Source: Gemmatimonadota bacterium
GTDB lineage: Bacteria > Gemmatimonadota > Gemmatimonadetes > Palauibacterales > Palauibacteraceae
Direction: 5' to 3'
NCBI GenBank assembly: GCA_033720355.1
Contig: JAWWCR010000001.1
Location: 10,364 to 74,363, forward strand
DNA length: 64,000 nucleotides
A program made the position numbers and the translations under genes. Shown piece after piece: positions 36,811-49,586 of this stretch; position 1 is the stretch's first letter, and every line of letters begins with the position of its first letter. The notes beneath the pieces were generated by a model, which did not search any database, was not told where the DNA came from, and saw nothing but the letters and a program-made list of their open reading frames with translations.

Positions 36811-37341
36811 CTGGAGCGGAGTGACTCCGAAGCGCGAGCTATCGCGCGGATTGTCGCCGGTGATCCGGATGCCCTGGCGGACGCGTTCAAGAAGCACAGC
36901 GAGCGTGTCTACCGGCTCGCTTTCGGGATCACGCGGTCGCTGAGCGATGCGGAAGACATAGTGCAGGACGTCTTCGCGGCTCTGCCGGAGAGCCTCGCGT
37001 CGTTCAGGGGTCGGGCGTCGCTGGGCACCTGGCTTCATCGGGTCGCCGTACGGTCGGCGATGATGCGACTGAGACACGAGCGTCTCATCGACAAGGTCCC
37101 GCTAGAGCTGGCGGCCCGGCGGGCACGGGGAGACGTCTCGCAGCCCGTGGACCGGGTCGCGTTGGAAAGAGCTCTGTACCAGATACCGGACGAGTACCGG
37201 ATCGTAATATGGCTGAAGATCGTCGAGGGCTGGTCGCACGCGGAGATCGCGGAGACCCTCGGCATCACGGAGAACGCATCGTACCAGCGATTGCACCGGG
37301 CGAGACGGCTGTTGCGGGCCGCGCTCGGCGAGAGGAGGTGA
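36811..37341 (+). CDS. ECF-type RNA polymerase sigma factor (sigma-1); probable CTG start
   Basis: Track ORF 36961..37341 lacks region 2.1/2.2. The in-frame sequence upstream reads LERSDSEARAIARIVAGDPDALADAFKKHSERVYRLAFGITRSLSDAEDIVQDVF, parallel to sigma-2 in this window. There is no ATG/GTG/TTG between the TAG at 36793 and 36961. AGGAGGA at 36794-36800 precedes CTG 36811. Confidence 0.7.
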   Translation: MERSDSEARAIARIVAGDPDALADAFKKHSERVYRLAFGITRSLSDAEDIVQDVFAALPESLASFRGRASLGTWLHRVAVRSAMMRLRHERLIDKVPLELAARRARGDVSQPVDRVALERALYQIPDEYRIVIWLKIVEGWSHAEIAETLGITENASYQRLHRARRLLRAALGERR

Positions 37342-37346
37342 GGCGG

Positions 37347-39437
37347 ATGCGGACGTTCTCGAGGCACCCGCGCTTCGAGCGGCTCAGTGAGCTCGCGGAG
37401 GGATCCCTGTCCGCCGACGAGCAGCGTCGGATACGGCGCCATCTCGAGCGTTGCAACCGTTGTCGGCGCGAAGTCGGCCTGATCCGCGATATCGATGACG
37501 CGCTGCTGAGAGTGCCGATTCCGTCCATGCCGGATGGGATCCTCGAGGGGATTCTGAGCCGTCGGGCGGACGGCGTTCGGACGATTCTGCCCGATGGCCC
37601 GGTTCACGCCCCGGCCAGTCCGGCGTGGAGGCCCGCCGCGGTGGCCGCCGGAGCCGTTCTCGCCCTCTCGGCCCTCGTCACGGTGTTCATCCCCGGGGGA
37701 GAGGTTCGCGCGGGAGCGAGCACGCTCAGCCTCGCGACGCCGCCCGTGAGTGGGGCGAGCGTCGCTGCGGTCTACGAGCCCGGCACTCTTCTCCGAGGCC
37801 GCTCGCAGGTCCGTGCCCGCGCCCGCGTCTGGCTCTCCGCGGATCCCGCCAACCCGCTCACGATCGAAGCCGGCGTGCTCGACGCGATAGACGATCGTTA
37901 CGCGGGGGCCATCGACCTCCCTGACGGGACGGGATACGCGGTGATCGTCCTCGAGGATGGTTCGGGGACCGAGATCGACGCGAACGGGGGTGCGTTCTGG
38001 CGATTCGACGCCACGTCGGAGACGGGGGCCACGCCCGGCGTGTTTCGTGCGAAGGTCGAGGCACTCGAGGAGCTCGCCGGGCTGGGGCTGGTGCCGGCGT
38101 CGCAGCCGCTGCTCGCCTCCATCGAGGCGACCCGCCGCTACCCCGACGACGCCGCGCTGTGGCGTCTGCGGGCCTTCCACGAGAAGCTGGCGACCACCGC
38201 CGAGGTGGAGCGCGCTTCGATGCTTGCAGTTCACAGGTCGAGGCTCACCGGTTTCGTCCGTGCTCTCGGACCCGCGCCCGACGCGTCCACCCTGGTGATG
38301 CTCGCCGACTACGCGGAGGCGATCGACGCGAACGAGCTGCAGTCCGAGTTGTTCGAGCGACTCGAGTCTATGGACCCCGATCATCCACTCCTCATCGAGG
38401 CGATGGCCGAGAGTCTGTACGACCCGGAATCGTGGGGTCCCCAGACCCTCGAACCCGCCGACGATCTCTTCCGTCGGACCGGCGGGAGCAGCCAGTGGAT
38501 CGCCCAGATCGGGTACGAGCTCGCGAAGGTGCTGGGCGACACGGACGCCCTGGTCACATGGGGCACCCGGATGTGGGAGCTCCAGCCCGAACTCCGCGAT
38601 CAGGTGGCGATCGACTTCGCGCAGCACCCGGAGCTTCGGTCGGAAGCGATCGAGCTTCTCCGCGGGCGACTGCACCTGTACGAAACGGCTCCACCGTTCG
38701 TGCGAGCGCTCCATCAGACGACGAGCGACTTCGAGAGCGAACTTCGTTCGAGGACGGCGCGGCTCTACGCGGAGCTCGGGAAGGCCCTGGTGGCCGGTGG
38801 GCGGAGAGCGTCGGGCGTAGAGGCTCTGGACAGGTCCATCGAGGAGCGCTGGGACTCCGAGGTTGCGGCGCTTCTCGTCGAGCACGGGGGGGCGTCGAGC
38901 CGATCGCTGGCAGCCCTGGTCGCGGCGGACCCCCTCTACCAGGGCGCTCTGCCCGACGATTTCGGCTTCACGACCGCAGAGCTGGACGCGGCCCATCTGG
39001 AGCTCGAGTCGCGGCTCCTCGCCAGCCTGTCTCAGGGCCGTCTGCCCGAGGACATCCGCCTCCGGTCGAGGGTGGGAGATCCCGTCGAGGTCGACGACGG
39101 AGGGGTGAGCCTGATCGCGTTGTGGCGCGTACCGCCGCACGAGGGGTCCGACGCGTCGATCGAGTTCGCGGAGTACGTCGGGCGTCTCACGGCAGCGGGC
39201 GTACGGGTGGTCGTCGCGTCGCCCGAGATCTGGCTGGACGAAACGATCGTGGTCGCCAATATGGCGGGCGCCCGCCCCGTGCTCGATCAGGACGGCCGCG
39301 CGGCACGCAGCTTCGGGACCGCGGACGTTCGAGATTATGTCGTCGTTCATGACGGCTTCTATTCCGTCCAGTACGATCTGGCGGAGGCGACGCGACTCGC
39401 GCTGTTGCAATCGGAAATCGAGAGCCGGGGGCGCTAA
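37347..39437 (+). CDS. Anti-sigma factor (zf-HC2) with single TM and a roughly 590-aa extracytoplasmic domain
   Basis: ATG 37347 comes after GAGAGGAGG. HLERCNRCRREV is a zf-HC2 motif. TM is AAVAAGAVLALSALVTVFI. A large helical domain follows. The C-terminal ~110 aa follow a TlpA-like pattern without Cys (VSLIALWRVPPHEG...VVVAS...PVLDQDGRAARSFG...YVVVHDG). Confidence 0.7.
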   Translation: MRTFSRHPRFERLSELAEGSLSADEQRRIRRHLERCNRCRREVGLIRDIDDALLRVPIPSMPDGILEGILSRRADGVRTILPDGPVHAPASPAWRPAAVAAGAVLALSALVTVFIPGGEVRAGASTLSLATPPVSGASVAAVYEPGTLLRGRSQVRARARVWLSADPANPLTIEAGVLDAIDDRYAGAIDLPDGTGYAVIVLEDGSGTEIDANGGAFWRFDATSETGATPGVFRAKVEALEELAGLGLVPASQPLLASIEATRRYPDDAALWRLRAFHEKLATTAEVERASMLAVHRSRLTGFVRALGPAPDASTLVMLADYAEAIDANELQSELFERLESMDPDHPLLIEAMAESLYDPESWGPQTLEPADDLFRRTGGSSQWIAQIGYELAKVLGDTDALVTWGTRMWELQPELRDQVAIDFAQHPELRSEAIELLRGRLHLYETAPPFVRALHQTTSDFESELRSRTARLYAELGKALVAGGRRASGVEALDRSIEERWDSEVAALLVEHGGASSRSLAALVAADPLYQGALPDDFGFTTAELDAAHLELESRLLASLSQGRLPEDIRLRSRVGDPVEVDDGGVSLIALWRVPPHEGSDASIEFAEYVGRLTAAGVRVVVASPEIWLDETIVVANMAGARPVLDQDGRAARSFGTADVRDYVVVHDGFYSVQYDLAEATRLALLQSEIESRGR

Positions 39438-39584
39438 CCCCGGCGCGGCGGCGAGGAGCCGCATGAGAAGTGAGATGCACGAGGGACGCGAAACCTTACC
39501 GCGCCCCTCGCACCGGTGTGGGTCGCCGGCGCGCCGGGGGGACGACGCCGCCGCCCGGATTGGGGGCGAAGGCCCCCGGGGTGG

Positions 39585-41426
39585 CTACCTCAGCGGGATC
39601 ACGGCCTCGGCGGTTCCGCCCTTCAGGGCCTCGTAGCGGATCGTCACCGATCCCGACCCACGCAGCAGATACTCGATCGTCCGGGTCTCGTGTCCACCGA
39701 GCCCGCTGCGGACGAGGATGCGCTCGAGCTGCTCCTGATCGATGCGCTCGGTCGGGCCGGGTGCGAACCGGTCGGTCACCCAGCCGGCCGCGATCACCTC
39801 TGCCCCGTCCACCGTGATCAGGTCGGGTCGCACGACGTTGTTTTGCTGTGCCTTCACCGTGATGGTCGGGATCGCCCGATCGTTCGCGAAGTCGACTCTT
39901 ACCCGGTAGACGCCCCCGCCGATGGCCTCCACCGAGGTCTCACCGATTCGGGTCATCGGCATCTGATCGGCATGGTAGAGCGTGAAGGCCATGTTCCGGT
40001 GAAAGAGCTCCATGCTCATGAACCGCGGGTTCACGCGGCCGGAGAGCTTCTTGAAACCGCCCATCTCGACCTCTCCGTAGACCGGGTGGTCGAAGGGAGC
40101 CCACTCAACGTATTGATCGCCGAACTCGAGGAAGTCGTCGAAGAAGTAGCGCGAGCGCTGACCCGAGATCGGCGAGTCGGGATCCCGTCCCTGCTCCTGG
40201 AGAAGCGGGCTGTTGAAGTACTGGCCGCCGTTCCACAGCTCGTTCGAGAAAGAGATGATCCCCAGACCGTCGTTGGTCCAGTCGATGGACCCACCGTGGA
40301 CCGTGTAGAGCCCCTGCCAGATGATCAGGTAGTCGTAGTAGGGGAGCATCCGCTCGCCGGTCTCGCCGAGTTCGTTGTACACCTGGATGTCGCGCTGCGG
40401 GTAGTCGCCGTACCACGCCATCCCCGGTCCGCGCAGGATCATCCCGCCCGAGTTGTGGAAGGACTGGAACCCGGCGATGTTCGGCCGCGTCATCAGGAAG
40501 TCGTTGATCGCGCGCGCCTCGGGGAGCTGGAACGGGTAGTCCATCGACCCGCCCTGGATGTAGTCCGGCTGCCAGTCGGACGCGTAGTTGCGGTTCGGGT
40601 CGTAGCCGCCGATCGGATCCTCGTTCACCCGACCGTCGCCGTCGTTGTCGATCCCCTCCGACCCGAGAAGCTCCCAGTCGCCGGTCTCCCCGATGGGCGC
40701 GGGCTCCATGATACGCGGGTCGTCCGGGCTGATTCGCCAGCGGCCCTGCCCGGGGACGTGCTTGCGGATCTGCTCGATCACCCCGTTGCCGTTCAGGTCG
40801 TCGGGCCCGTCCTCGTCGAACAGGCCGTCACCGTCGCTGTCGACCGGGATGTGCCCCGTCCTCGCGCCCGACCCCGCGCCGTGGAGGAAGTAGTCTCGAC
40901 CGTCCGGGTTGACGCTCGGAAGGATGTAGAACACGCGTTCGTCGACGAGGCGCGTGATCTCGTCGATGCGGCCGTAGTTCTCCATCAGGTACCAGATCGT
41001 GTACAGGGAGACCTCGGCGCCCTGAATCTCGTTCCCGTGCACGTTGGCCTCGATGAACATCCCCGTCTTGGAGAGCTCGGGCCCCGTCGCGGGGTTGTTG
41101 ATCGTCATGAGCCACATCTCCCTCCCCCCATAGCTCTCGCCGAGCGACTGGAGGGACAGGAACTCGGGCCACGTCCGCTCCATCAGCTGGAGGCGCTCGC
41201 CGATCTCTGCGTGGTCGAGCCAGCGATCCCAGGTGAGCGGGAGGGTGTGCTCGGGATCGGAACCCATGCCCGTATCCTGCTGACCCCCGAGCGGAGCGCC
41301 GCCGGGGAGCATCGCGAGGAGCAGGGCGGCCGTCGCGGCGCCGCGCCTCGCACGACGCGAGGGGGCCGTCGGGTCGTCGGTCTTCGTCATCGAGTATTCC
41401 GGAGTCTCCGTGTGTCGTCGGCTCAT
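39585..41426 (-). CDS. Peptidase M14 (zinc carboxypeptidase) family, secreted, catalytic motifs intact
   Basis: C-terminal part of track ORF 39585..41909. Start is ATG 41426 or 41390. Motifs: ANVHGNEIQG (HxxE), NPDGRDY, DPNRNY, SFHNSGG and FSNELW (catalytic Glu). It also has Ca-loop-like DSDGDGLFDEDGPDDLNGNG and DNDGDGRVNED. Confidence 0.8.
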   Translation of the reverse strand: MSRRHTETPEYSMTKTDDPTAPSRRARRGAATAALLLAMLPGGAPLGGQQDTGMGSDPEHTLPLTWDRWLDHAEIGERLQLMERTWPEFLSLQSLGESYGGREMWLMTINNPATGPELSKTGMFIEANVHGNEIQGAEVSLYTIWYLMENYGRIDEITRLVDERVFYILPSVNPDGRDYFLHGAGSGARTGHIPVDSDGDGLFDEDGPDDLNGNGVIEQIRKHVPGQGRWRISPDDPRIMEPAPIGETGDWELLGSEGIDNDGDGRVNEDPIGGYDPNRNYASDWQPDYIQGGSMDYPFQLPEARAINDFLMTRPNIAGFQSFHNSGGMILRGPGMAWYGDYPQRDIQVYNELGETGERMLPYYDYLIIWQGLYTVHGGSIDWTNDGLGIISFSNELWNGGQYFNSPLLQEQGRDPDSPISGQRSRYFFDDFLEFGDQYVEWAPFDHPVYGEVEMGGFKKLSGRVNPRFMSMELFHRNMAFTLYHADQMPMTRIGETSVEAIGGGVYRVRVDFANDRAIPTITVKAQQNNVVRPDLITVDGAEVIAAGWVTDRFAPGPTERIDQEQLERILVRSGLGGHETRTIEYLLRGSGSVTIRYEALKGGTAEAVIPLR

Positions 41427-41431
41427 GTCCG

Positions 41432-43276
41432 TCACCCCAGCGTGACCGTGGCGGAATCCGAACCGCCCTTCTGCGAGCGAACCCGAATCTCGATCCGAGA
41501 GCCGGGCTGTCCGCGGATCACCCATGTGACGGTCCTGCGCGTTCCCGAGCCGGAGAGTTGCTGGACGGTCACGGTCTTCTGCGCGCCGCTCAGGATCTGC
41601 TCGGGGGGGACCTGGATCTGGATGGTCGTCGGCTGTACCGAGCCCGAGACCACGCCATGTCGAAGCGACGTGGGAAAGAAGCCGCCGTTGACGATCGTCG
41701 CCTCCACGGTGAAGACACCGCCCCCGTGAGACGTCACCTCCGTGTCGACGAGCGAGACCCGCGGGAGCATCCCGGCGAGACGGACGACGAACTGGCCGTG
41801 CCGGCGGCCCAGGTCTTCCAGATCGGCCTCGGGCGGGTTCGACGTGACATAGGGCAGGAAGCCGCCGATCTCGACCTCGCCGAGCTGCGGGTGGGTGTAT
41901 GCCGACCACGCGGCGAATGCGTCGACTCCGGCCCCCTCCAGGCCTCCCAGCACCTCGGCGTCGACACCGCCGCCGTCTCCCCGACCGCTCCCGGCCGGTT
42001 CATCGCCTTCGCCCGCCGCCTCGGGAAGGGCCCATCCCTGAGTGCTGAACGACGGGATGCCGAACTGGTAATAGCCCCACTCGAAGAAAGCCCCGGCCGG
42101 CTCGCGGTGCAGGCCGACCCGCTCGATCCCGGTCAGCTCGCGATAGACGTCCGAGACCTTCGTGAAGTACACCTGGTCGTCTCCGTGCACGGTCGTCGAG
42201 GGTCGCCGGCCCGAGCTCGGGTCGTTGTCCCGCCCGACCTGGGCTCCGCGGAACCCGCCGCCACCGCCGCCGAACCCGAACCCGAATCCGCCTCCTCCGC
42301 CGGTCGGTCTGAAGACGCCGACGTCGTACATGCCATCGAACGACGCGTCGGCGAACTCCACGAGGTCGAGCGCGCGCGGATCGGCGAGGCCGCCCCCGGA
42401 GTTGGGGGGGGTCACGAGATTGTCGGTGTGGCCGAAGGTAAGGATCGCGCCGATGTTGCGGTGGGAGATCATGAAGTCCATGAGGCCGCGAGTCTCGGCC
42501 TCACTCACCATGTGCACCCCGGCGTCGGCCTGCCAGTAGGGGTATTCGTGCTGGAAATTCCTGTCGAGGTCCGTCCCCCCGGGGCCGTCTTCGTTGAAGA
42601 ACCCGTCTCCGTCGTCGTCGGCTCCCTCGTAGTACATCGCGTGGGTGCCGGTCTCCCCTTTCGTAGCGTCGGCGCGCTTCATGAGCCGAGGGTCGTCGGG
42701 GTCGATCATGAGGGCGCCGCCCGGGTCGGGCACGCGCATGAGGGTGATCGCGCCGTCGCCGTTCAGATCGTCGAAGCCGTCCTCATCGGTACGCCCGTCG
42801 TTGTCATCGTCGTACGCGGATGCGTTGCCGGTCCGGTCCCACCTCGCGGCACCGAACATCGCCTCGGCGCCGTCGGGGTTGAGCCTCGGAATCACGTAGA
42901 CGACCTGCTCGTCGAGCACCGTCCGGACGTCGACGGAACCGGCCTGCTCGATCAGGTATCGCACGATTTCGAGGGCGTGCGAGCTCCCGACGACATGGTC
43001 GCCCGACAGATTGCCGACAACCAGCACCGCGGGCCGATCGGCGAGGGGGGCGCCTGAACGGTTCGCGATCTCGACGACCCATACCTCGCGCCCTTCGCTG
43101 GTCGTGGCGATCGAGCTCAGGCTGGCAACGGAGGATCCGCCCGTCAGCGTCTGTAGCTCGGAGGTGAGAGCCGCGTGGTTCCGATACGAGGCCTGGGCCG
43201 CGAGCGAGCCGGGCAGCAGGGCGGCGAGGACGGCCACCGCGACCGGTCCGCCGCGGCGAAGGGATGACGTGATCAC
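41432..43276 (-). CDS. M14 carboxypeptidase-like protein with degenerate active site (putative pseudo-peptidase)
   Basis: GTG 43274-43276 comes after AGGAGA. Signal is VITSSLRRGGPVAVAVLAALLPGSLAAQA. It aligns with its neighbour, but HGNE becomes SGDH (GNLSGDHVVG) and NELW becomes TQGW. It retains NPDGAEA, DLDRNF and FGHT. It carries a GGGGGFGFGFGGGGGGF insert. Confidence 0.7.
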   Translation of the reverse strand: MITSSLRRGGPVAVAVLAALLPGSLAAQASYRNHAALTSELQTLTGGSSVASLSSIATTSEGREVWVVEIANRSGAPLADRPAVLVVGNLSGDHVVGSSHALEIVRYLIEQAGSVDVRTVLDEQVVYVIPRLNPDGAEAMFGAARWDRTGNASAYDDDNDGRTDEDGFDDLNGDGAITLMRVPDPGGALMIDPDDPRLMKRADATKGETGTHAMYYEGADDDGDGFFNEDGPGGTDLDRNFQHEYPYWQADAGVHMVSEAETRGLMDFMISHRNIGAILTFGHTDNLVTPPNSGGGLADPRALDLVEFADASFDGMYDVGVFRPTGGGGGFGFGFGGGGGGFRGAQVGRDNDPSSGRRPSTTVHGDDQVYFTKVSDVYRELTGIERVGLHREPAGAFFEWGYYQFGIPSFSTQGWALPEAAGEGDEPAGSGRGDGGGVDAEVLGGLEGAGVDAFAAWSAYTHPQLGEVEIGGFLPYVTSNPPEADLEDLGRRHGQFVVRLAGMLPRVSLVDTEVTSHGGGVFTVEATIVNGGFFPTSLRHGVVSGSVQPTTIQIQVPPEQILSGAQKTVTVQQLSGSGTRRTVTWVIRGQPGSRIEIRVRSQKGGSDSATVTLG

Positions 43277-43376
43277 CGTGCTGACTTCTCCTGGTTCGGG
43301 AAGGGACACAGGATAGAGGCGGGGGAGCACCGCAACCAGATGCGGGGTCGCGCCGGGACGAGGAGGGCGCAGCGAC

Positions 43377-43760
43377 ATGGGGTATCGACTGCTGGCCGAC
43401 ACCGTGCTGGTCGTGCATTTCCTCTTCATCGCGTTCGTCGTGGGCGGGGGATTCCTCGCGATCCGCTGGCGCCGCGTCACGTGGCTGCACCTTCCGGCCG
43501 CGGTCTGGGGCGCGGCGATCGAGTTCTTCGGCTGGGTCTGTCCGCTGACGCCGCTCGAGAACCACCTCCGACGACTGGGAGGCCAGGCCGGGTACACGGA
43601 CGGATTCATCGAGCACTACCTCATGCCGCTCGTGTACCCGCCCGGCCTCACGCGTGGCACGCAGCTCGTGCTCGCCGGGGTCGTCGTCGTGCTCAACGTG
43701 GCGGCGTATGCTCTCGTCGTGCGGCGGTGGCGCGCCGGGCGCCCCCGCCACCAGTGCTAG
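43377..43760 (+). CDS. DUF2784-family small membrane protein
   Basis: 127-aa ORF with 3-4 TM helices. HLPAAVWGAAIEFFGWVCPLTPLENHLR is the DUF2784 signature as I recall it. Confidence 0.6.
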   Translation: MGYRLLADTVLVVHFLFIAFVVGGGFLAIRWRRVTWLHLPAAVWGAAIEFFGWVCPLTPLENHLRRLGGQAGYTDGFIEHYLMPLVYPPGLTRGTQLVLAGVVVVLNVAAYALVVRRWRAGRPRHQC

Positions 43761-46444
43761 TCGGCGCGTAGCGCCTCGACGGGGTCGATGCGAGCGGCCC
43801 GCCGGGCCGGCAGCCAGCTGCACAGGACGCCGAGGGTAAAGACGAGGAGGCACCCTGCGGCGAGGACCCGCGGCTCGAGCGGGCTGACGCCGAACACGAA
43901 GCTCTCGAGCAACCGCGTCAGGGCCGCCGCGGCGAGAAGTCCCACGGCGAGACCGACGCTCGTCAGACGCACGCCGTCGCGGAGCACGAGCGAGATGGCG
44001 CCGCCCGGCGCGGCTCCCAGGGCGATGCGGACGCCGATCTCACGTCGTCGCCGTGACACCGCCTGAGCCATGACCCCCGCGATCCCGACGAGGGCCAGCA
44101 CGAGCGCCAGAGCCGCGAAGATCGCGAGCAGGGTGGCGCGCAGACGCGGGCCGCCCACCGTGCCGGCGAGCAGGTCGCCCATCGGGCTGATCGAGGAGAT
44201 GGCGATCCGCGGCTCGATCGAGTTGATGACCGCGCGGATCTCGTCCCCCATCGACTCGACGACCGCGTCGCCGCGGACGACGACCGAGAGCCCACGGGCG
44301 ATGCCGTTCCAGGGCTCCTGCGAGGCGGGCAGAAACGCCATCGGGCCCGGCGGCGTCTCGGGTCCGAAGTGGCGGATGTCCGCTACGACGCCGAGCACCG
44401 CGAACGTGTCGGAGTGGATGAGGGCCGACTTCCCGATGGCGCTTTCGCCGGGCCAGAACATCTCGGCCATCGCGGCGCTGATTACCATGCCCCCGGCGGC
44501 GTCGGCTCCGTCCCGCCACTCGATCCCCCGTCCCGTCACGAGTCGCGCGTCGAGCGCGTCGAGCGCCCCCGGCGTCACCGAGCGGACCTCCGCGCACCGG
44601 CCTTCCCCAGGCCCGGGCGGTGGCCGGTCGAGCGGGGTGACCCCGTCGCACGAGTAGTTGTCGGAGAGAGGTACGACGTCCATCGCGCCGGCCACCATCA
44701 CCCCCGGCAGAGCCTCGATTCGCTCGAGTACCTCGCGGTAGCGGTCCTCTGCCGCTTCGGGCTCCAGGTCCCACCAGGCGGCGCCGTGCATCTCGAGCGT
44801 CAGGACTCCGCGGCGCTGCACCCCAAGATCGACCCCGTGGAGATTCGCGAAGCTCTGAAGAAGCAGCCCGGCCCCGACCACGAGCACCAGCGTCGTCGCG
44901 ACCTGCGCCAGCACGAGGCCCCGTCGAAGTCGCTCTGCCCGTCCGGCGATCTCACCCCCCCGCGACCCGCCGACGGGCGAGAGCGGAGTCGAGCCCGCGA
45001 TACGAAGGGCGGGCAGCAGGCCGAAGAGTATTGCGGTCCCGCCGGCGAGCGCCGCCGAGAACGCGAGAACCGCGGCGTCGACCTCGATGGCGTCGGCTCG
45101 TGGCAGCCACTGTCCGGCGAGACCGACGATCGCGCCTACCGTCCCGTAGGCAAGGGCGACCCCGAGGACGCCTCCGACCAGCGCGATCGCGAGGCTCTCG
45201 GCGAACAGATGTGTGACCAGTCGCCCCCGCGACGCGCCCATCGATGATCGAACGAGGAGTTCCTCGCGGCGTTCGAGCATCCGTCCGGTCAGCAGGTTCG
45301 CCACGTTCACGCAGGCCACCAGCAGGACGAGACCGACTGCGCCCATCAGGACGTAGAGCGCCGTCCGTGTGTCGCCGACGACGCTGTCCCGAAGCGGTGC
45401 GAGCGTCATCGTTCGATCCGCGTTCTCTTCGGGGTAGGCATCCGCGAGGCGCGCCATCGCCGCCCTGACCTCCGGCTGCGCGCCGTCGACGTCGACCCCG
45501 TCCGCCAGACGCGCGACCCCCCTCCACGACCGGCCCGACCGAAACCAGTCGACGGCGTCGAAGTACGGCGTACGCCAGACCTCCGGCTGACGCCCGTTGT
45601 ACGTGACGAGGTTCGGCCCCTCGAAATCGGCGGGGGTGACGCCGGCCACGACGTAGGCCTCGTTGTTGAGTAGCACGCTCGACCCCGGAAGATCCGGATC
45701 GGCCCCGAAGCGTCTCGTCCACAGGCCGTGCGAGATCACCACCGTCGGGGTGCGCCCCTCCCCCTCCTCGTCAGGGACGAAGAAGCGTCCGGCCGCGGGC
45801 CGGACCCCCAGGACGTCGAAGTAGTCCCACGACACCGTCGCGCCCGGCAGCACTTCCGGGGCGCCCTCGGTGAAGGCGGGCTGCCATGCGGAGATCCCGG
45901 CGACACCGCTGAAGGCCGAGACCTCCGACTCGATATCGGCGAGGTTCGGGTACGACACGTTTGTCGATCGACCGGGCTCCCCGATCCGGTGGCCGATGAG
46001 TTGAACGAGCCGGTCGGGCTCGTCGTACGGGAAGGGCCGGAGGAGGACGCCCCGCACGATCCCGAGCAGGGCGGTGTTCGCGCCGATCCCCAGCATGAGC
46101 GTCACGACGGCGGTCGCGGTGAATCCGGGCCGGCTCCGGAGCGATCGGCCGGCGCGGCCGAGATCCTGGAACAGGTTGCGGAGCCCGAACCCGTGTGTCG
46201 TGAGATACCACGCGTCGCGCAGCGACCCGACGGCGTGGACGACCAGCCGAAGGCGATCGAGCGTCCCGACCCCCCTTCCCCGGGCGAGACGGTCGTGGGC
46301 GGCGAGGATCTCGGCGTTCCACTCGGCGCGCCAGGCCCTGCGGTCGGCGCTCGGCAACAGCCGGCTTGCCGCGCCGACGAACCGGATCGAGAAACGCACG
46401 AAGCGGTCGGGGGTTTCGGGGGTCGGAGGGGTCGGAGACAGCAT
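43757..46444 (-). CDS. Duplicated FtsX/MacB-like ABC permease ('ADOP' type), module 2
   Basis: 895-aa ORF with the same two-fold TM1 / periplasmic domain / 3-TM architecture. It ends PARRAARIDPVEALRAD. It starts 4 nt after the padR stop. Confidence 0.85.
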   Translation of the reverse strand: MLSPTPPTPETPDRFVRFSIRFVGAASRLLPSADRRAWRAEWNAEILAAHDRLARGRGVGTLDRLRLVVHAVGSLRDAWYLTTHGFGLRNLFQDLGRAGRSLRSRPGFTATAVVTLMLGIGANTALLGIVRGVLLRPFPYDEPDRLVQLIGHRIGEPGRSTNVSYPNLADIESEVSAFSGVAGISAWQPAFTEGAPEVLPGATVSWDYFDVLGVRPAAGRFFVPDEEGEGRTPTVVISHGLWTRRFGADPDLPGSSVLLNNEAYVVAGVTPADFEGPNLVTYNGRQPEVWRTPYFDAVDWFRSGRSWRGVARLADGVDVDGAQPEVRAAMARLADAYPEENADRTMTLAPLRDSVVGDTRTALYVLMGAVGLVLLVACVNVANLLTGRMLERREELLVRSSMGASRGRLVTHLFAESLAIALVGGVLGVALAYGTVGAIVGLAGQWLPRADAIEVDAAVLAFSAALAGGTAILFGLLPALRIAGSTPLSPVGGSRGGEIAGRAERLRRGLVLAQVATTLVLVVGAGLLLQSFANLHGVDLGVQRRGVLTLEMHGAAWWDLEPEAAEDRYREVLERIEALPGVMVAGAMDVVPLSDNYSCDGVTPLDRPPPGPGEGRCAEVRSVTPGALDALDARLVTGRGIEWRDGADAAGGMVISAAMAEMFWPGESAIGKSALIHSDTFAVLGVVADIRHFGPETPPGPMAFLPASQEPWNGIARGLSVVVRGDAVVESMGDEIRAVINSIEPRIAISSISPMGDLLAGTVGGPRLRATLLAIFAALALVLALVGIAGVMAQAVSRRRREIGVRIALGAAPGGAISLVLRDGVRLTSVGLAVGLLAAAALTRLLESFVFGVSPLEPRVLAAGCLLVFTLGVLCSWLPARRAARIDPVEALRAD

Positions 46445-46448
46445 CGGC

Positions 46449-46769
46449 TCAGCCCTCCCGCGGATGGAGGATGCGCGCGCCCACGAGCCGCGGCAGCGAA
46501 GCGAGCTTCTCGCGCGCCGCGGGCAGAAGGGCGGCTCCCTCGGGCGTTACCTCGTACACCCGCCGCCGCGGCCGACCGGCCTCGAGGGCGTCGGCGGCCG
46601 GCTCCCACGTCGATCTCAGACACCCGTTGGCCTCGAGACGCCGCAGCGCCGGATAGACCGTGCCGCTCGGCAATCCCGTCACGTCCATGATATCGAAGCC
46701 GTATCGCGCCCCGTCCCTCATCGCTCCGAGGATCAGAGCGGTTGCGACGGTCATCCGGGTCCCGGCCAT
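46449..46769 (-). CDS. PadR-family transcriptional regulator (module 2)
   Basis: TALILGAMRDGARYGFDIMDVTGLPSGTVYPALRRLEANGCLRS...RRVYEVTPEG. I prefer ATG 46767-46769 (MAGTRMTV...) over the track's GTG 46817. This is based on the lengths of the other two PadRs and on the operator-like motif at 46811-46819. Confidence 0.75.
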   Translation of the reverse strand: MAGTRMTVATALILGAMRDGARYGFDIMDVTGLPSGTVYPALRRLEANGCLRSTWEPAADALEAGRPRRRVYEVTPEGAALLPAAREKLASLPRLVGARILHPREG

Positions 46770-46810
46770 GTCAAGCCTCGCAGCGGTGATGATCTCTGCT
46801 CGATACAGGT

Positions 46811-46833
46811 TGTACACTACCTATGTAGACTAC
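46811..46833. promoter_or_regulatory. Candidate PadR-2 operator / promoter patch
   Basis: tGTACACTAC-ctat-GTAGACTAC is a 9-bp direct repeat with 1 mismatch. It contains TGTACACTA, which matches TGTATACTA upstream of padR-1 in the same orientation. It is locally AT-richer. Confidence 0.4.
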
Positions 46834-46922
46834 GACGGGCGACGGATGGTTGCAATCGGCTCGAGCTCCGCGGGGTGCGATCCCGAGATGCCGCGCCCGT
46901 CAGGCCGACCCCGGGCGGAGTT

Positions 46923-49586
46923 CTACTCGGAGCGCAGAACCTCCACGGGATCGACGCGCAGGATCCGCCGCGCCGCGAGAGCCGCGGCTCCGAGGCCGAC
47001 CGCCACCAGCCCCACGACCGCCGCCGCATAGGCGACAGGGTCGATGGGCGTGATGCCGAAGAGGAACTCGCCGAGCAGCCGCGACCCCGCGAGCGCGGCC
47101 ACAAGCCCGACGGCCACGCCAGCACCCAGCGGCAGTGCCTCCCGGCCGAGCTCGCGAACGAGCAGCCGTCCGGGGTCGGCGCCGAGGGCCACGCGGACTC
47201 CGAGCTCCCTCATGCGCGCAACGAGGCTGCGGCCCGTCACGCCGAAGACGCCGATCCCGGCGAGGAGCGTGGCGGTCAGCGCGAAGTCGGCGAGAAGGAG
47301 CGTTCTGTAACGCTGGCCCGCCAGCGACCCCGCGACCACCGACGAGAACGGTCGGACATCCTCGAGAGGAAGCGCCGGGTCCAGCGACCAGATCGCCTCA
47401 CGCGCCGGGGCCGCCAGCCCGCCCGGGTCACCGGAACCCCCCAGCACCAGGGAGACACGCTGTCGGACATCGTCCTCCTCCTGGTGGATCGGCGTGTAGA
47501 AGGTGGCGTCGGGGGCGCTCCTCAGGTCGGACATGATGACGTCGCCCACCACCCCGACGATCTCCCACCGCCGGTTGTCGCGCAGGATCGCCTGGCCGAT
47601 CGCCGTGTCTCCGGGCCAGAACCTGGACTCCATCGCCTCGCTCACCACCACGACGGGCTGGCCGCCGTCCCGATCGGCCGCCTCGAAGCCGCGTCCCTCG
47701 CGGATCGGGATGCCGAGCGTCTCGAAGTAGCCCGGTAGCACCGACCGGCGCGTGGCTTCGGGGCCCTGCTCGGAGTCGGGGGTCACCCGACCGGGGATCT
47801 CGAAGCTCGAGCTGCCGCCACGCCCCGAGAACGGGAGCGCGCTCGACCCGGTGACCGACGTGACGCCGGGCAGCGCGCCGAGTCGCTCGGTGACGCGGAA
47901 GAGCAGGGCCGAGCGGGACGCACCATCGGGATATCGGTCCACGGGGAGCCCCAGCTCGACGACCAGGCTCCCCTCCGCCTCGAACCCGGGGTCCACCGAC
48001 AGCTCGGCGACCAGGCTGCGCGTGAGCAGGCCCGTACCGACGAGGAGTACGAGGGAGATGGCGAACTGGGCCGCGACGAGACCGTTCTGCGTACGGCGGC
48101 CGCCACCGCCCCGCCCGGGAAGCTTGCGGAGCGTCGCCTGGAGATCGGGCGATCCGGCGATGAAGGCCGGCACGAGACCGAACGCCAGGCTCGTGAGCGC
48201 TCCGAGACCCGCGGTGAAGGCCAGAATTCGCGGGTCGAGCGGGGCGACGGCGGACAGACCGAGCTCGGAGGGCGCCCACCTCAACAGGACTCCGCGCAGC
48301 GCGAACGCGAGTCCGTAGCCGCCCAGAACTCCGCCTCCGGCAAGGACGAGCGCCTCGACGAGGAGCTGTCGCGTGAGGCGCCCCGCCCCGGCACCGAGGG
48401 TCGCGCGCGTGGCGAGCTCGCCACGCCGCGCCGCGAGGCGGCCGAGCAGGAGGGTCGCGACGTTCACGCAGGCGAGTAGCATGAGGAGCGACACCGCCCC
48501 GAGCAGGAGCAGAAGCGGCCCCCGTGCGTTCTTCGTCTGCTCGGTGTGTCGAAGCGTGACCCGCACGCCGCGCGATTCGGGCGGGGCGCCGCCGGTGACG
48601 AGGCGCTGTGTCTCCGCCACGGCCGTCGGCGTGATGCCGCCAGCGAGTCTCCCCATGGCCTCGTACACGTGGTTGCCGTCGTCGCGGTCGACCGGCTCGC
48701 CTCCGGCCGGCACCCAGAGGGTGGCCTCGCCGATGCCCGGTACGACCGACCCGAAGCGGAAGTCGGGGGGCAGCACGCCAATCACTCGAAAGGTGCGTCC
48801 GTCGAGCCGGATCGACCGGCCGATGACCTGCGCGTCGCCCCCCCAAACGCGCTGCCATGCATCGTGGTGGAGTACGGCGACGTCGGCCGCCCCGGGGCCT
48901 CCCTCGTGGGGTCCGAAGAGACGGCCCAGCAGGGGAGAGACCCCGAGCAGCGGCCACAGCGATGGAGTCGCCCACCCCACCATGACGGATCGGGGGTCCC
49001 CCGAACCCACCAGGGCCATCTGCGTCGCGCGGTAGACCGCGATCTCTTCGTACGCCGTCTGGTCGCGGCGCCATGTCTCGTACTCGGGGTACGAGAGACC
49101 GATCCGGTCCCACAGTGCGTCGAGCACGTGGTGGCCCTGCCAGCCGGGGTAGGTGTTCCAGATGGTGACGAGCTCGTCGGGCCTGTCGAAGGGAAGGCTG
49201 CGGAAGAGCACCCGGTCGACGATCGAGAAGACGGCCGTCGTCGCGCCGATCCCCACCGTGAGGGTCGCCACGATCAGAGCCGCCTGCCCGGGTCGGCGAC
49301 GCATTGCGCGGAAGGCGAACCGCGCGTCGTGCGCCCCCGCAGAAAGCCAGCGTCCCGGCGCGGAAGCCGGCGGGCGCCTCAGCGCGTTGCCGAGCCGGGC
49401 GAGAAACGGCCCGATCGCACGTCGCGCCTCCGCGCGATAGTGGCGACGGGCGGCGCGGCGGCCGTCCGCCTCGAGCCGGGTCGCGAACTCCTCCTCGAGG
49501 TCTCCGAGCGCGAACTCACGCTGCGATGTGGGGAGGAGGATGCGAAGCAGCCAGGCCGAGAAGCGTGGGGGCCGAGCCGGCGTCAT
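46923..49586 (-). CDS. Duplicated FtsX/MacB-like ABC permease ('ADOP' type), module 3
   Basis: 887-aa ORF with the same architecture. It ends ARRILRVDPVEVLRSE. Its start overlaps the padR-3 stop (ATGA). Confidence 0.85.
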   Translation of the reverse strand: MTPARPPRFSAWLLRILLPTSQREFALGDLEEEFATRLEADGRRAARRHYRAEARRAIGPFLARLGNALRRPPASAPGRWLSAGAHDARFAFRAMRRRPGQAALIVATLTVGIGATTAVFSIVDRVLFRSLPFDRPDELVTIWNTYPGWQGHHVLDALWDRIGLSYPEYETWRRDQTAYEEIAVYRATQMALVGSGDPRSVMVGWATPSLWPLLGVSPLLGRLFGPHEGGPGAADVAVLHHDAWQRVWGGDAQVIGRSIRLDGRTFRVIGVLPPDFRFGSVVPGIGEATLWVPAGGEPVDRDDGNHVYEAMGRLAGGITPTAVAETQRLVTGGAPPESRGVRVTLRHTEQTKNARGPLLLLLGAVSLLMLLACVNVATLLLGRLAARRGELATRATLGAGAGRLTRQLLVEALVLAGGGVLGGYGLAFALRGVLLRWAPSELGLSAVAPLDPRILAFTAGLGALTSLAFGLVPAFIAGSPDLQATLRKLPGRGGGGRRTQNGLVAAQFAISLVLLVGTGLLTRSLVAELSVDPGFEAEGSLVVELGLPVDRYPDGASRSALLFRVTERLGALPGVTSVTGSSALPFSGRGGSSSFEIPGRVTPDSEQGPEATRRSVLPGYFETLGIPIREGRGFEAADRDGGQPVVVVSEAMESRFWPGDTAIGQAILRDNRRWEIVGVVGDVIMSDLRSAPDATFYTPIHQEEDDVRQRVSLVLGGSGDPGGLAAPAREAIWSLDPALPLEDVRPFSSVVAGSLAGQRYRTLLLADFALTATLLAGIGVFGVTGRSLVARMRELGVRVALGADPGRLLVRELGREALPLGAGVAVGLVAALAGSRLLGEFLFGITPIDPVAYAAAVVGLVAVGLGAAALAARRILRVDPVEVLRSE

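What the first reader, a model, noticed from the sequence alone, without database searches (positions are those of the whole stretch)
39585..43276. Adjacent M14 carboxypeptidase pair: one catalytically intact, one with zinc and catalytic residues replaced
**Layout**
- Two secreted M14-like genes lie 5 nt apart on the same strand.
- They align well: IEANVHGNEIQGAEVSLYTIWYLMENYG versus VVGNLSGDHVVGSSHALEIVRYLIEQAG.

**The downstream gene (39585..41426) is intact**
- It keeps HxxE (HGNE), NPDG, DPNRNY, the second His (SFHN) and the catalytic Glu (SNELW).

**The upstream gene (41432..43276) is degenerate**
- The zinc ligands are changed: H to S and E to H (SGDH).
- The catalytic Glu is changed to Gln (STQGW).
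- It retains NPDG, DLDRNF (the substrate-carboxylate Arg) and the Ca-loop-like DDDNDGRTDEDGFDDLNGDG inserts.

**Interpretation**
- This is the signature of an enzyme/pseudoenzyme pair.
- The inactive copy could be a substrate-binding or regulatory subunit, or a lectin-like binder of C-termini.
Basis: partly seen in the sequence, partly recalled or inferred. Interest (0 to 1): 0.65.

Follow-up and report, generated by a model that had tools for sequence, protein, structure and literature searches.

The report
Paired active and dead carboxypeptidase genes
Two neighbouring genes encode a working zinc carboxypeptidase and a catalytically dead copy of it, and this pair recurs across several bacterial phyla and is sometimes fused into one protein, so it is probably an undescribed two-part protease that databases label as two ordinary enzymes.

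Summary
Both genes lie on the minus strand, 5 nt apart. I call the downstream gene A (39585..41426) and the upstream gene B (41432..43276).

- **A** is an intact M14 carboxypeptidase. It keeps H69, E72, R127, N144, R145, H196, Y248 and E270 (bovine CPA numbering).
- **B** is a full-length paralog (27% identity, E=1e-45). It has lost H69 (S), E72 (H), H196 (G), Y248 (R) and E270 (Q). It keeps R127, R145 and both Asp-rich loops.
- **B is not a local decay product.** In 121 close homologs and 137 diverse representatives, position 196 is never His and position 270 is never Glu. Yet 149 of 586 columns are at least 95% invariant.
- **The gene order B then A is conserved.** It holds in 76/76 informative genome loci, 69/70 informative metagenome loci (GC 34-75%) and 6/6 distant representatives checked. 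The stop and start codons often overlap by 4 nt.
- **A clade of Phycisphaerae carries the two as one B-A fusion** of about 1,230 aa, at the same syntenic site where a relative has the split pair.

Best reading: a secreted two-subunit M14 carboxypeptidase, with A catalytic and B a non-catalytic partner. I found no description of this in the literature. The complex itself and what B does in it are inferred.

The parts
41432..43276 (-). Gene B: 614-aa secreted pseudo-carboxypeptidase. It has the M14 fold plus a C-terminal beta-sandwich.
   Evidence: - Pfam PF00246, 1.1e-22.
- AF2 model: pLDDT 67, pTM 0.72.
- Foldseek best matches are CPN 2nsm, CPT, CPM 1uwy and CPD-II 1qmu; for CPN, CPM and CPD the alignments span more than 600 columns, so they include the C-terminal domain.
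- Identical to the NCBI protein P0001, named 'M14 family metallopeptidase'.
39585..41426 (-). Gene A: 613-aa secreted M14 carboxypeptidase with the complete catalytic set.
   Evidence: - Pfam PF00246, 1.5e-40.
- PDB phmmer best hit is carboxypeptidase T, 1.5e-13.
- Foldseek best hit is CPT, 3.6e-15.
- All catalytic motifs are at least 90% conserved in 68 orthologs.
41427..41431 (-). The 5-nt B-stop/A-start junction, read as an operon with likely translational coupling.
   Evidence: - The sequence is GGGGTGAcggacATG.
- In 70 related loci the nearest A start overlaps B's stop by 4 nt in 42 cases. In 26 the gap is 13 nt or less, and in 2 no start was assigned.
43193..43276 (-). Predicted signal peptide of B: (M)ITSSLRRGGPVAVAVLAALLPGSLAAQ.
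   Evidence: - Read directly from the sequence.
- The hydrophobic N-terminus ending in AQ is conserved across the family.
- No predictor was run.
42995..43006 (-). B residues 91-94, SGDH, in place of the zinc motif HxxE (H69->S, E72->H).
   Evidence: - Alignment to 1h8l and alignment A2.
- Family counts: position 69 is E89/S19/A9/Q3/T1; position 72 is H117/Q3/D1.
- Coordinates.
42824..42835 (-). B residues 148-151, RTGN, matching A's RTGH. R148 is the probable equivalent of R127 and is retained.
   Evidence: - R148 is at least 90% conserved.
- It aligns with A's R189 after a one-residue shift in A2.
- Coordinates.
42554..42571 (-). B residues 236-241, DLDRNF. R145, which anchors the substrate C-terminal carboxylate, is kept. 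N144 is D here.
   Evidence: - R239 is present in 121/121 homologs.
- Position 238 is N94/D27.
42419..42439 (-). B residues 280-286, TFGHTDN. The H196 column is an invariant Gly. It is followed by the B-type signature D-N.
   Evidence: - G282 is present in 121/121 homologs.
- Position 283 is H56/L29/E12/R10.
- D285 is present in 121/121 and N286 in 120/121.
- Across 137 diverse representatives, position 196 is G92/S26 and never H; D199 and N200 are each present in 117.
42077..42106 (-). B residues 391-400, REPAGAFFEW. Y248 is replaced by the conserved R391.
   Evidence: - Alignment A2 places it against A's LYTVHGGSIDW.
- R391 is at least 90% conserved.
42032..42046 (-). B residues 411-415, STQGW. 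The catalytic E270 is replaced by Q.
   Evidence: - Family counts at this position: P58/Q52/L7/T2/A2, never E.
- Across 137 representatives: P42/R41/S10/T10/D10, never E.
42188..42301 (-). Insert found in B but not in A: a Gly-rich loop (GGGGGFGFGFGGGGGGF) followed by the conserved segment RGAQxGRDNDPxSGRRPxTTV.
   Evidence: - Absent from A in alignment A2.
- The RGAQ...RRP segment is conserved in the close family.
- pLDDT is below 50 over residues 283-361.
- Most distant B-type representatives match the profile in two stretches that skip this region.
42587..42811 (-). B insert between NPDG and DxxRN, holding two Asp-rich DxDxDG-type loops (residues 156-175 and 220-230).
   Evidence: - The D/N/G/E positions are invariant across both A and B families.
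- Calcium binding is inferred from the motif type and was not tested.
41028..41039 (-). A residues 130-133, HGNE (zinc ligands H69 and E72).
40851..40862 (-). A residues 189-192, RTGH (R127 equivalent).
40584..40601 (-). A residues 276-281, DPNRNY (N144 and R145).
40443..40463 (-). A residues 322-328, SFHNSGG (zinc ligand H196).
40233..40310 (-). A residues 373-398, LYTVHGGSIDW...SNELW (Y248 and catalytic E270).

Best explanation
The two genes form one operon that encodes the two subunits of a secreted (periplasmic or extracellular) M14 metallocarboxypeptidase.

**A is the catalytic subunit.** It binds zinc through H130, E133 and H324. It removes C-terminal residues using E396 as the general base, with R189, N279, R280 and Y374 holding the substrate.

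**B is an ancient paralog that can no longer bind the catalytic zinc or activate water.** It has lost H69, E72, H196, Y248 and E270. It has been kept as a non-catalytic partner that associates with A, probably as a pseudo-symmetric heterodimer made in equal amounts through coupled translation.

**B's former active-site cleft stays conserved** (R127, N/D144, R145, the D-N after position 196, and W272). B therefore most likely adds a binding surface, either for the peptide substrate or for A itself, rather than acting only as ballast.

**What is shown**
- A has the complete catalytic set.
- B lacks five of the eight canonical residues across the whole family.
- B is under purifying selection.
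- The gene order and tight junction are conserved across phyla.
- Natural B-A fusions exist.

**What is inferred**
- Physical association in the unfused species.
- Export of both proteins.
- What B contributes to the complex.
For: **1. A is intact.**
- The motifs align to carboxypeptidase T and carboxypeptidase A.
- They are at least 90% conserved in 68 orthologs.
- They are present in all six distant partners.

**2. B is catalytically dead by the canonical criteria, and this holds family-wide.**
- Close family, 121 sequences.
- 137 diverse representatives: position 196 is never His and position 270 is never Glu.

**3. B is nevertheless constrained.**
- 149 of 586 columns are at least 95% invariant across 66 sequences (65 loci plus the window).
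- Mean p-distance is 0.39 for B against 0.25 for A.
- The A and B distances correlate at r=0.67.
- The B profile finds 1,118 cluster representatives at E<=1e-30; that count is not restricted to B-type proteins.

**4. The pairing is conserved.**
- 76/76 informative loci from GTDB species genomes.
- 6/6 informative distant representatives, including Planctomycetota, Phycisphaerae and Ca. Saccharicenans.
- 69/70 informative metagenome loci spanning GC 34-75%.
- A-type and B-type ORFs separate cleanly by score with no intermediates.

**5. The junction is tight.**
- 5 nt in the window.
- A 4-nt stop/start overlap in 42 of 70 loci.

**6. Natural fusions exist.**
- Six diverged clusters of 1,220-1,265-aa proteins in Phycisphaerae have a B-type N-half and an A-type C-half, in the same order as the genes.
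- They sit at the same syntenic site (ABC_tran, FtsX, hypothetical, [M14 unit], HI0933_like) where another Phycisphaerae MAG has the split pair.
- In P0266, the fusion read in full, the linker that replaces A's signal peptide has no hydrophobic stretch.

**7. No other neighbouring gene is conserved.** The best candidate occurs in 19 or fewer of 80 loci, so the functional unit is the two genes.
Against: - No direct evidence of a complex exists.
- Both monomer models are only moderate (pLDDT 67 and 66), and I could not inspect coordinates. The geometry of B's cleft is therefore unknown, as is whether H94 with D285 could hold a metal.
- Gene fusion and operon linkage also fit two proteins acting in sequence on one substrate without stable binding.
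- One metagenome locus (L103) has 630 nt after B with no A-type gene.
- I did not test whether A-type genes occur without B, so I cannot say that A depends on B.
- Secretion is read from the sequence, not predicted by a tool.
Confidence: 0.62

Rival explanations
1. B is a free-standing binding protein: a lectin-like receptor for peptide C-termini or another carboxylate ligand. It works in the same pathway as A, for example by capturing substrates, but does not form a stable complex with it.
For: - B keeps the carboxylate-anchoring R145 (121/121), N/D144 and probably R127, while losing the catalytic residues.
- B has its own signal peptide.
- Known eukaryotic M14 pseudopeptidases act as binding proteins (PMC11266112).
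Against: - Conserved fusions into one polypeptide are more typical of subunits than of a soluble receptor, as are the 4-nt overlapping junctions.
- Across the wider superfamily R127 is kept in only 54/137 representatives and R145 in 106/137. Carboxylate binding is therefore not a universal constraint.
Confidence: 0.15
2. B regulates A in trans, either as a chaperone that helps A fold or as a removable inhibitor. It would play the part that the N-terminal pro-segment plays in the A/B subfamily of M14 enzymes. B's own loop (the Gly-rich stretch plus RGAQxGRDNDPxSGRRP) would occupy A's cleft until it is released.
For: - A has no pro-segment between its signal peptide and the catalytic domain.
- B in this clade carries a conserved, flexible, Arg-rich insert that the model predicts with low confidence, as an interface or substrate-mimic loop might be.
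- The tight co-expression fits this role.
Against: - The insert is restricted to a subset of B-type proteins. Most distant B-type proteins lack it but are still paired with A.
- A permanent covalent fusion is hard to reconcile with a partner that has to be released.
Confidence: 0.13
3. B is still an enzyme with a rebuilt active site. It could be a hydrolase that uses the conserved His at position 72 together with Asp199/Asn200, or a different metal site, and it would act on a different bond from A.
For: - In the close family H94 (117/121), D285 (121/121), N286 (120/121) and H243 (121/121) are conserved near the old active site.
- The common [DE]xxH arrangement looks like a swapped HxxE.
Against: - Across 137 representatives no candidate ligand set is conserved. 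Position 69 is D52/E51 with many others, and it is Ser in the window protein. Position 72 is His in only 66, otherwise D/R/Q/Y/L/V.
- Position 270 is P/R/S/T/D/K, so no general base is conserved.
Confidence: 0.07
4. The pair is an ordinary tandem duplication in which the upstream copy is decaying and has no function.
For: - The upstream copy has lost its catalytic residues.
- It evolves 1.56 times faster than A.
Against: - B is a full-length ORF without frameshifts in more than 150 loci.
- It has 149 near-invariant columns and family-specific invariant motifs.
- It is conserved across at least three phyla and has been fixed as fusions.
Confidence: 0.02

Closest known systems
Bacterial M16B peptidases encoded by two-gene operons and mitochondrial processing peptidase alpha/beta: an active subunit paired with a paralogous inactive subunit
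   Same: - An active metallopeptidase sits next to a catalytically dead paralog of the same length in a two-gene operon.
- In related lineages the two are joined in one polypeptide (M16A/C).
- The inactive M16 subunit carries a Gly-rich loop used in substrate binding (PMC11266112). B in this clade also has a Gly-rich loop.
   Different: - The fold and clan are different: M16 uses an inverted HxxEH zinc motif, whereas this pair belongs to the M14 funnelin fold.
- M16 enzymes are endo- or oligopeptidases that form a closed chamber. No chamber or heterodimer has been shown here.
- The similarity is one of organisation, not of ancestry.
Eukaryotic M14 pseudopeptidases: AEBP1/ACLP, CPXM1, CPXM2, carboxypeptidase D domain III and yeast Ecm14
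   Same: - They belong to the same family (PF00246).
- They have the same overall design as the N/E subfamily: a catalytic-like domain plus a C-terminal beta-sandwich.
- They have lost catalytic residues while the protein is conserved.
- CPD places two active domains and one inactive domain in a single chain, much like the Phycisphaerae B-A fusion.
   Different: - Those proteins mostly keep H69 and often E72, and lose R127, R145 or E270 (table in PMC11266112). B does the opposite: it loses all three zinc ligands and keeps R145 and probably R127.
- They are eukaryotic, carry discoidin or other added domains, and are not encoded next to an obligatory active partner.
- B is bacterial and has the Asp-rich insert.
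Carboxypeptidase T (Thermoactinomyces vulgaris) and the N/E-subfamily enzymes CPD-II, CPM and CPN: the nearest solved structures
   Same: - A shares all the catalytic and substrate-anchoring residues.
- Both A and B models match these folds with Foldseek probability 1.00.
- As in the N/E enzymes, there is no pro-segment and there is a C-terminal beta-sandwich.
   Different: - Sequence identity is only about 13-19%.
- A and B have an insert of roughly 100 residues with two DxDxDG-type loops between NPDG and DxNRN, which these structures lack.
- CPN's non-catalytic subunit is a leucine-rich-repeat protein, not an M14 paralog (from my own knowledge, not checked here).

Membership tests
MEROPS family M14 / Pfam PF00246 (zinc carboxypeptidase fold): protein A | Significant match to the family profile and the funnelin alpha/beta fold | tested here: met
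   - PF00246: 140 bits against a cut-off of 21.6.
- Foldseek best hit is CPT, 3.6e-15, TM-score 0.70 normalised to the target.
MEROPS family M14 / Pfam PF00246 (zinc carboxypeptidase fold): protein A | Zinc ligands H69, E72 and H196 | tested here: met
   HGNE (residues 130-133) and SFHN (H324) align to CPT and CPA and are conserved in orthologs and distant partners.
MEROPS family M14 / Pfam PF00246 (zinc carboxypeptidase fold): protein A | Catalytic E270 and substrate residues R127, N144, R145 and Y248 | tested here: met
   SNELW, RTGH, DPNRNY and LYTVHGG are all conserved.
MEROPS family M14 / Pfam PF00246 (zinc carboxypeptidase fold): protein A | Carboxypeptidase activity | not testable with these tools
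   This needs an enzyme assay.
M14 fold (homolog, not peptidase): protein B | Significant match to the family profile and fold | tested here: met
   - PF00246: 81.5 bits.
- PDB phmmer: CPD-II at 2.6e-9.
- Foldseek: CPN at 3.4e-11.
Active M14 peptidase: protein B | Zinc ligands H69, E72 and H196 | tested here: not met
   The residues are S91, H94 and G282. Across the family, position 69 is almost never His and position 196 is never His.
Active M14 peptidase: protein B | General base E270 and Y248 | tested here: not met
   The residues are Q413 and R391. Across the family, position 270 is never Glu.
Active M14 peptidase: protein B | C-terminal carboxylate anchor N144/R145 and R127 | tested here: met
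   - D238 (N in 94/121 homologs).
- R239 (121/121).
- R148 is at least 90% conserved, and aligns after a one-residue shift.
Enzyme plus paralogous pseudoenzyme heteromer (M16B alpha/beta type organisation) | Active and inactive paralogs encoded side by side in one operon, conserved across taxa | tested here: met
   - 76/76 informative genome loci, 69/70 informative metagenome loci and 6/6 distant representatives.
- The junction is 13 nt or less, or overlapping, in 68 of 70 loci.
Enzyme plus paralogous pseudoenzyme heteromer (M16B alpha/beta type organisation) | Fusion of the two into one chain in some lineages | tested here: met
   Six fusion clusters in Phycisphaerae, at the same syntenic locus as a split pair.
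Enzyme plus paralogous pseudoenzyme heteromer (M16B alpha/beta type organisation) | Physical heterodimer in which activity depends on the inactive subunit | not testable with these tools
This needs co-purification and assays.

The most novel reading that the evidence does not exclude
The B-A unit is an obligate heteromeric M14 carboxypeptidase, a quaternary design not known for this family. The dead paralog's conserved cleft (R127, R145, D199/N200, W272) acts as a second, non-hydrolytic docking site for peptide C-termini or acidic groups. That site sets substrate choice or gates access to A's zinc site. B-type proteins would then be the first prokaryotic M14 pseudopeptidases: an ancient family spread across several phyla that current databases annotate as active enzymes.
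Probability: 0.35. Interest if true: 0.75.

Novelty: new variant of a known kind. Interest (0 to 1): 0.62.

Why it matters
**A gap in what is known about M14.** M14 carboxypeptidases are among the best-studied proteases, yet a 2024 review lists only eukaryotic pseudopeptidases in the family (PMC11266112). My searches of the held literature found no heteromeric or bacterial case.

**A large unrecognised family.** These data define a conserved bacterial family of dead M14 paralogs. The B profile finds more than 1,000 clusters at 50% identity with E<=1e-30. That count may include some A-type proteins, but the best 137 full-length representatives are all B-type. Members occur in Gemmatimonadota, Acidobacteriota, Planctomycetota and unclassified metagenome lineages. 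Each is almost always encoded directly upstream of an intact partner, and in one clade the two are fused.

**Consequences if the two form a complex**
- It would be a new way of building an M14 enzyme, parallel to the alpha/beta arrangement of M16 peptidases.
- It would offer a tractable bacterial system for asking what a pseudopeptidase subunit does.

**Practical points**
- Every B-type protein I saw named by a source is called 'M14 family metallopeptidase', 'zinc carboxypeptidase', 'murein tripeptide amidase MpaA' or 'hypothetical protein'. Counts of peptidases in these abundant soil and sediment phyla are therefore inflated.
- Expressing A alone may fail to give the native enzyme.

Tried and rejected
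- **NCBIfam scan of A and B:** no family matched.
- **Promoter and terminator scan of 39300..43800:** no sigma-70-type promoter, and only chance-level terminator-like sites.
- **Search for a third conserved gene:** clustering all ORFs of 80 loci found none. TPR proteins (16 loci), MacB/FtsX permeases (10), an amidohydrolase (9), sortilin/BNR proteins (9) and gamma-glutamyltranspeptidase (6) are sporadic neighbours. I rejected a larger operon or pathway.
- **Structure prediction:**
  - It gave only moderate models: B at pLDDT 67 and A at 66, with all inserts below 50.
  - Fold searches returned only generic M14 structures.
  - Coordinates cannot be read, so the geometry of B's cleft could not be examined.
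- **'Swapped zinc motif' idea:** I considered ExxH in place of HxxE after seeing GNLEGDH in most close homologs. I rejected it as a conserved metal site. The window protein has Ser at position 69. Position 72 is His in only 66/137 diverse representatives. Positions 196 and 270 never carry a ligand or a base.
- **Literature:** searches for bacterial M14 pseudoenzymes, heterodimeric carboxypeptidases, M14 in Gemmatimonadetes and M14 non-peptidase homologues found nothing on this pair.
- **dN/dS:** not attempted, because the available orthologs are too diverged (72% protein identity or less for those with DNA) for unsaturated dS. I used column invariance and relative p-distance instead.

Full report
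**1. What is in the window**

The region holds two ORFs on the minus strand. I call the downstream gene A (39585..41426, 613 aa) and the upstream gene B (41432..43276, 614 aa).

- B's TGA stop ends at 41432 and A's ATG is at 41426, which leaves 5 nt between them.
- B starts at a GTG with AGGAGA 11 nt upstream. It is identical to an NCBI protein from a Gemmatimonadota MAG named 'M14 family metallopeptidase' (P0001).
- The window has about 69% GC throughout.
- Both proteins begin with a basic and then hydrophobic segment ending in AQ or AQQ, and this feature is conserved across homologs. I read these as signal peptides. No predictor was available.

**2. Checking the observation**

- Both proteins match Pfam PF00246 Peptidase_M14: A at 1.5e-40, B at 1.1e-22. 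NCBIfam has no model for either.
- They are full-length paralogs: 27% identity over 628 columns, E=1e-45.
- For A, phmmer against PDB aligns HGNE, NPDG, D-x-NRN, FH and NELW to carboxypeptidase T.
- For B, the same search aligns 'VGNLSGDHVVG' to 'IGNMHGNEVVG' of duck carboxypeptidase D domain II. This confirms H69->S and E72->H.
- A 34-sequence alignment of both families (A2) fixes the other columns:

| Position | A | B |
|---|---|---|
| N144/R145 | DPNRNY | DLDRNF |
| H196 | SFHNSGG | TFGHTDN |
| Y248 | LYTVHGGSIDW | REPAGAFFEW |
| E270 | SNELW | STQGW |

B has also lost H196, where the aligned residue is Gly, and Y248, which is Arg. B keeps R145, N/D144 and, after a one-residue shift, R127 (RTGN against A's RTGH). 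Both proteins carry the same insert between NPDG and DxNRN, and its two DxDxDG-type loops are invariant across both families.

**3. B is a conserved family, not a decaying copy**

The first search found 1,301 homologs of B. The best 120 are 55-86% identical. Column counts over 121 sequences are:

| Position | Residues found |
|---|---|
| 69 | E89/S19/A9/Q3/T1 |
| 72 | H117/Q3/D1 |
| 145 | R in 121/121 |
| 196 | G in 121/121 |
| 197 | H56/L29/E12/R10 |
| 270 | P58/Q52/L7/T2/A2 |

- Many B-specific motifs are invariant, for example FQH, DNLVT, RGAQxGRDNDPxSGRRP and PSFST-GW.
- Across 66 paired sequences (65 loci plus the window), B has 149/586 columns at least 95% invariant and A has 235/563.
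- B's mean p-distance is 0.39 against 0.25 for A, and the two sets of distances correlate at r=0.67.
- B therefore evolves about 1.6 times faster than A but is clearly under purifying selection.

A's orthologs keep every catalytic motif at 90% or more and are 75-89% identical to the window protein.

**4. The pairing is conserved**

A scan of one genome per GTDB species found 323 stretches encoding B relatives, and 80 loci were fetched.

- In 76 of them an A ortholog follows B directly on the same strand.
- The other four loci end at a contig edge just after B.
- The nearest A start overlaps B's stop by 4 nt in 42 of 70 loci. In 26 the gap is 13 nt or less, and in 2 no start was assigned.
- No other gene is conserved around the pair.

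**5. The family is much wider than Gemmatimonadota**

A profile search of 1.84 billion cluster representatives gave 1,118 hits at E<=1e-30. This total is not restricted to B-type proteins. Among 137 full-length representatives from the best 150:

- None has the canonical set.
- Position 69 is D52/E51, and His in only 6.
- Position 72 is H66/D16/R14/Q12.
- Position 196 is G92/S26 and never His.
- Position 270 is P42/R41 and others, never Glu.
- R145 (106), D199 (117), N200 (117) and W272 (125) are largely kept.

Where a source gives a name, it places members in Planctomycetota, Phycisphaerae, Acidobacteriota (including Ca. Saccharicenans) and Gemmatimonadota. The names are always 'M14 family metallopeptidase', 'zinc carboxypeptidase', 'murein tripeptide amidase MpaA' or 'hypothetical protein'.

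I looked up eight distant representatives.

- All six with enough downstream DNA are followed, at distances from a 4-nt overlap to a 58-nt gap, by a protein of about 575-603 aa (cut by the contig end in L081) that is 41-51% identical to A.
- All six partners keep H69, E72, R127, N144, R145, H196, Y248 and E270.

A metagenome scan seeded with 40 diverse B-type sequences returned 80 loci with GC from 34% to 75%.

- 67 have an HxxE-bearing A-type ORF directly downstream.
- Two more show the A N-terminus before the contig ends.
- Ten end at or inside B.
- One (L103) has 630 nt downstream with no A-type gene.
- A-type and B-type ORFs separate cleanly by score with no intermediates. This points to one old duplication.

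**6. Natural fusions**

One representative, P0266 (1,235 aa, from a Phycisphaeraceae MAG), has two halves:

- The N-half (about residues 30-625) is B-type: GLDGTR, LGRHDTV and FATTMW.
- The C-half (about residues 659-1227) is A-type: SIHANE, FHNMGG and FTNELW.

A search with P0266 found five more full-length fusions of 1,220-1,265 aa at 59-72% identity, plus a partial one. All have the same split of dead and live motifs.

The fused gene lies between an ABC_tran/FtsX/hypothetical trio and an HI0933_like gene in two independent assemblies (L169 and L170). Another Phycisphaerae MAG has the separate 721-aa B and 603-aa A, overlapping by 4 nt, in exactly that context (L082). The fusion therefore arose from the pair and has been kept. 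In P0266, the fusion whose sequence was read in full, the linker that replaces A's signal peptide has no hydrophobic stretch. That is expected if one export signal now serves both halves.

**7. Structure**

- AF2 models are moderate: B has pLDDT 67 and pTM 0.72, and A has pLDDT 66.
- The M14 core and the C-terminal beta-sandwich are confident, while all inserts fall below 50.
- For B, Foldseek returns CPN, CPT, CPM and CPD-II; the CPN, CPM and CPD alignments run into the C-terminal domain. For A it returns CPT and CPA.
- The architecture therefore resembles the N/E subfamily, with a catalytic domain plus a beta-sandwich and no pro-segment, and with an added Asp-rich insert.
- I could not inspect coordinates or model the complex.

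**8. Interpretation**

Shown:
- A has an intact catalytic set.
- B is a conserved homolog that is catalytically dead by the canonical criteria.
- B then A is a two-gene unit conserved across phyla, with overlapping junctions.
- The unit is fused in one clade.

Inferred:
- The two proteins associate after export.
- A does the chemistry.
- B supplies a non-catalytic function.

I favour a stable heteromer (confidence about 0.6). Fusion, coupled translation and strict co-occurrence are the classic signature of subunits. What B contributes is open. Its old cleft remains conserved (R127, N/D144, R145, D199/N200, W272), which fits a docking site for a peptide C-terminus or for A.

Rivals are a free binding protein (0.15), a regulator or chaperone acting in trans (0.13), a rebuilt enzyme (0.07) and a decaying duplicate (0.02, effectively excluded).

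**9. Comparison with what is known**

- The closest analogue in organisation is the M16B alpha/beta peptidase: a two-gene operon with active and inactive paralogs that are fused in M16A/C. It has an unrelated fold.
- Within M14, known pseudopeptidases are eukaryotic (AEBP1, CPXM1, CPXM2, CPD-III, Ecm14). They mostly keep the zinc ligands and lose the substrate-binding Arg residues (PMC11266112). B shows the reverse pattern.
- Seven searches of the held literature found no description of a bacterial M14 pseudoenzyme or a heteromeric M14 enzyme. Absence from this library does not prove absence from all literature.

**10. Verdict**

The finding generalises to a widespread and currently mis-annotated bacterial module. 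I rate it a new variant of a known kind, with interest 0.62.

Noticed in passing
window 42188..42301 (B residues 326-363): B carries a Gly-rich loop (GGGGGFGFGFGGGGGGF) followed by a conserved Arg/Asp-rich segment (RGAQxGRDNDPxSGRRPxTTV). A lacks this insert, and so do most distant B-type proteins. AF2 predicts it with pLDDT below 50. The Gly-rich loop of the inactive M16 subunit is a loose parallel.
   Followed up: partly
L169 4001..7708 and L170 4001..7798, compared with L082 4001..7974: In Phycisphaerae the M14 unit, whether split or fused, always sits after an ABC ATPase, an FtsX-type permease and a 259-278-aa protein with no Pfam hit, and before an HI0933_like flavoprotein. In the window a MacB/FtsX permease (43757..46444, minus strand) also lies just upstream of B, separated from it by a DUF2784 gene on the other strand. 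Ten of the 80 Gemmatimonadota-type loci have a MacB/FtsX neighbour. This could be chance, because these permeases are very numerous in these phyla.
   Followed up: partly
P0450 (1,272 aa; found): A different fusion. An M28 peptidase with PA and transferrin-receptor-like dimerisation domains (residues about 150-690) is joined to a C-terminal half (residues 719-1266) that matches A better than B (243 against 147 bits) and has GIHAAE at the zinc motif. My motif scans did not find its H196 and E270 motifs. It suggests that A-type carboxypeptidases combine with other exopeptidase modules.
   Followed up: partly
L053 3851..5707 (minus strand): One Gemmatimonadota locus has a third, more distant M14 paralog (PF00246, 4.9e-27). 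It is encoded divergently just upstream of the B-A pair. Its score against A (212 bits) is close to its score against B (172 bits).
   Followed up: no
L103 5789..6420: This is the only informative locus in which a B-type gene is not followed by an A-type gene. The 630 nt before the contig end hold no M14 similarity and only short antisense ORFs. It may be an assembly break or a real exception.
   Followed up: partly
window 36961..39437 (+): An ECF sigma factor fragment or gene (Sigma70_r2/r4, ECF) overlaps the start of a 742-aa protein with an N-terminal zf-HC2 anti-sigma motif. The pair converges on the 3' end of gene A. The long C-terminal part of the anti-sigma protein has no Pfam match.
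   Followed up: partly
window 43757..49586 (-): There are two large MacB_PCD/FtsX permeases of 895 and 887 aa. The first was confirmed by Pfam; the second is judged from its similar length and sequence only. A small PadR-family regulator (46449..46817) lies between them. This permease-plus-PadR arrangement repeats in the window.
   Followed up: partly
window 39585..43276 and loci L001-L168: Every source name seen for B-type proteins ('M14 family metallopeptidase', 'M14 family zinc carboxypeptidase', 'murein tripeptide amidase MpaA', 'hypothetical protein') treats them as ordinary or active enzymes. The family lacks a model of its own in Pfam and NCBIfam.
   Followed up: yes
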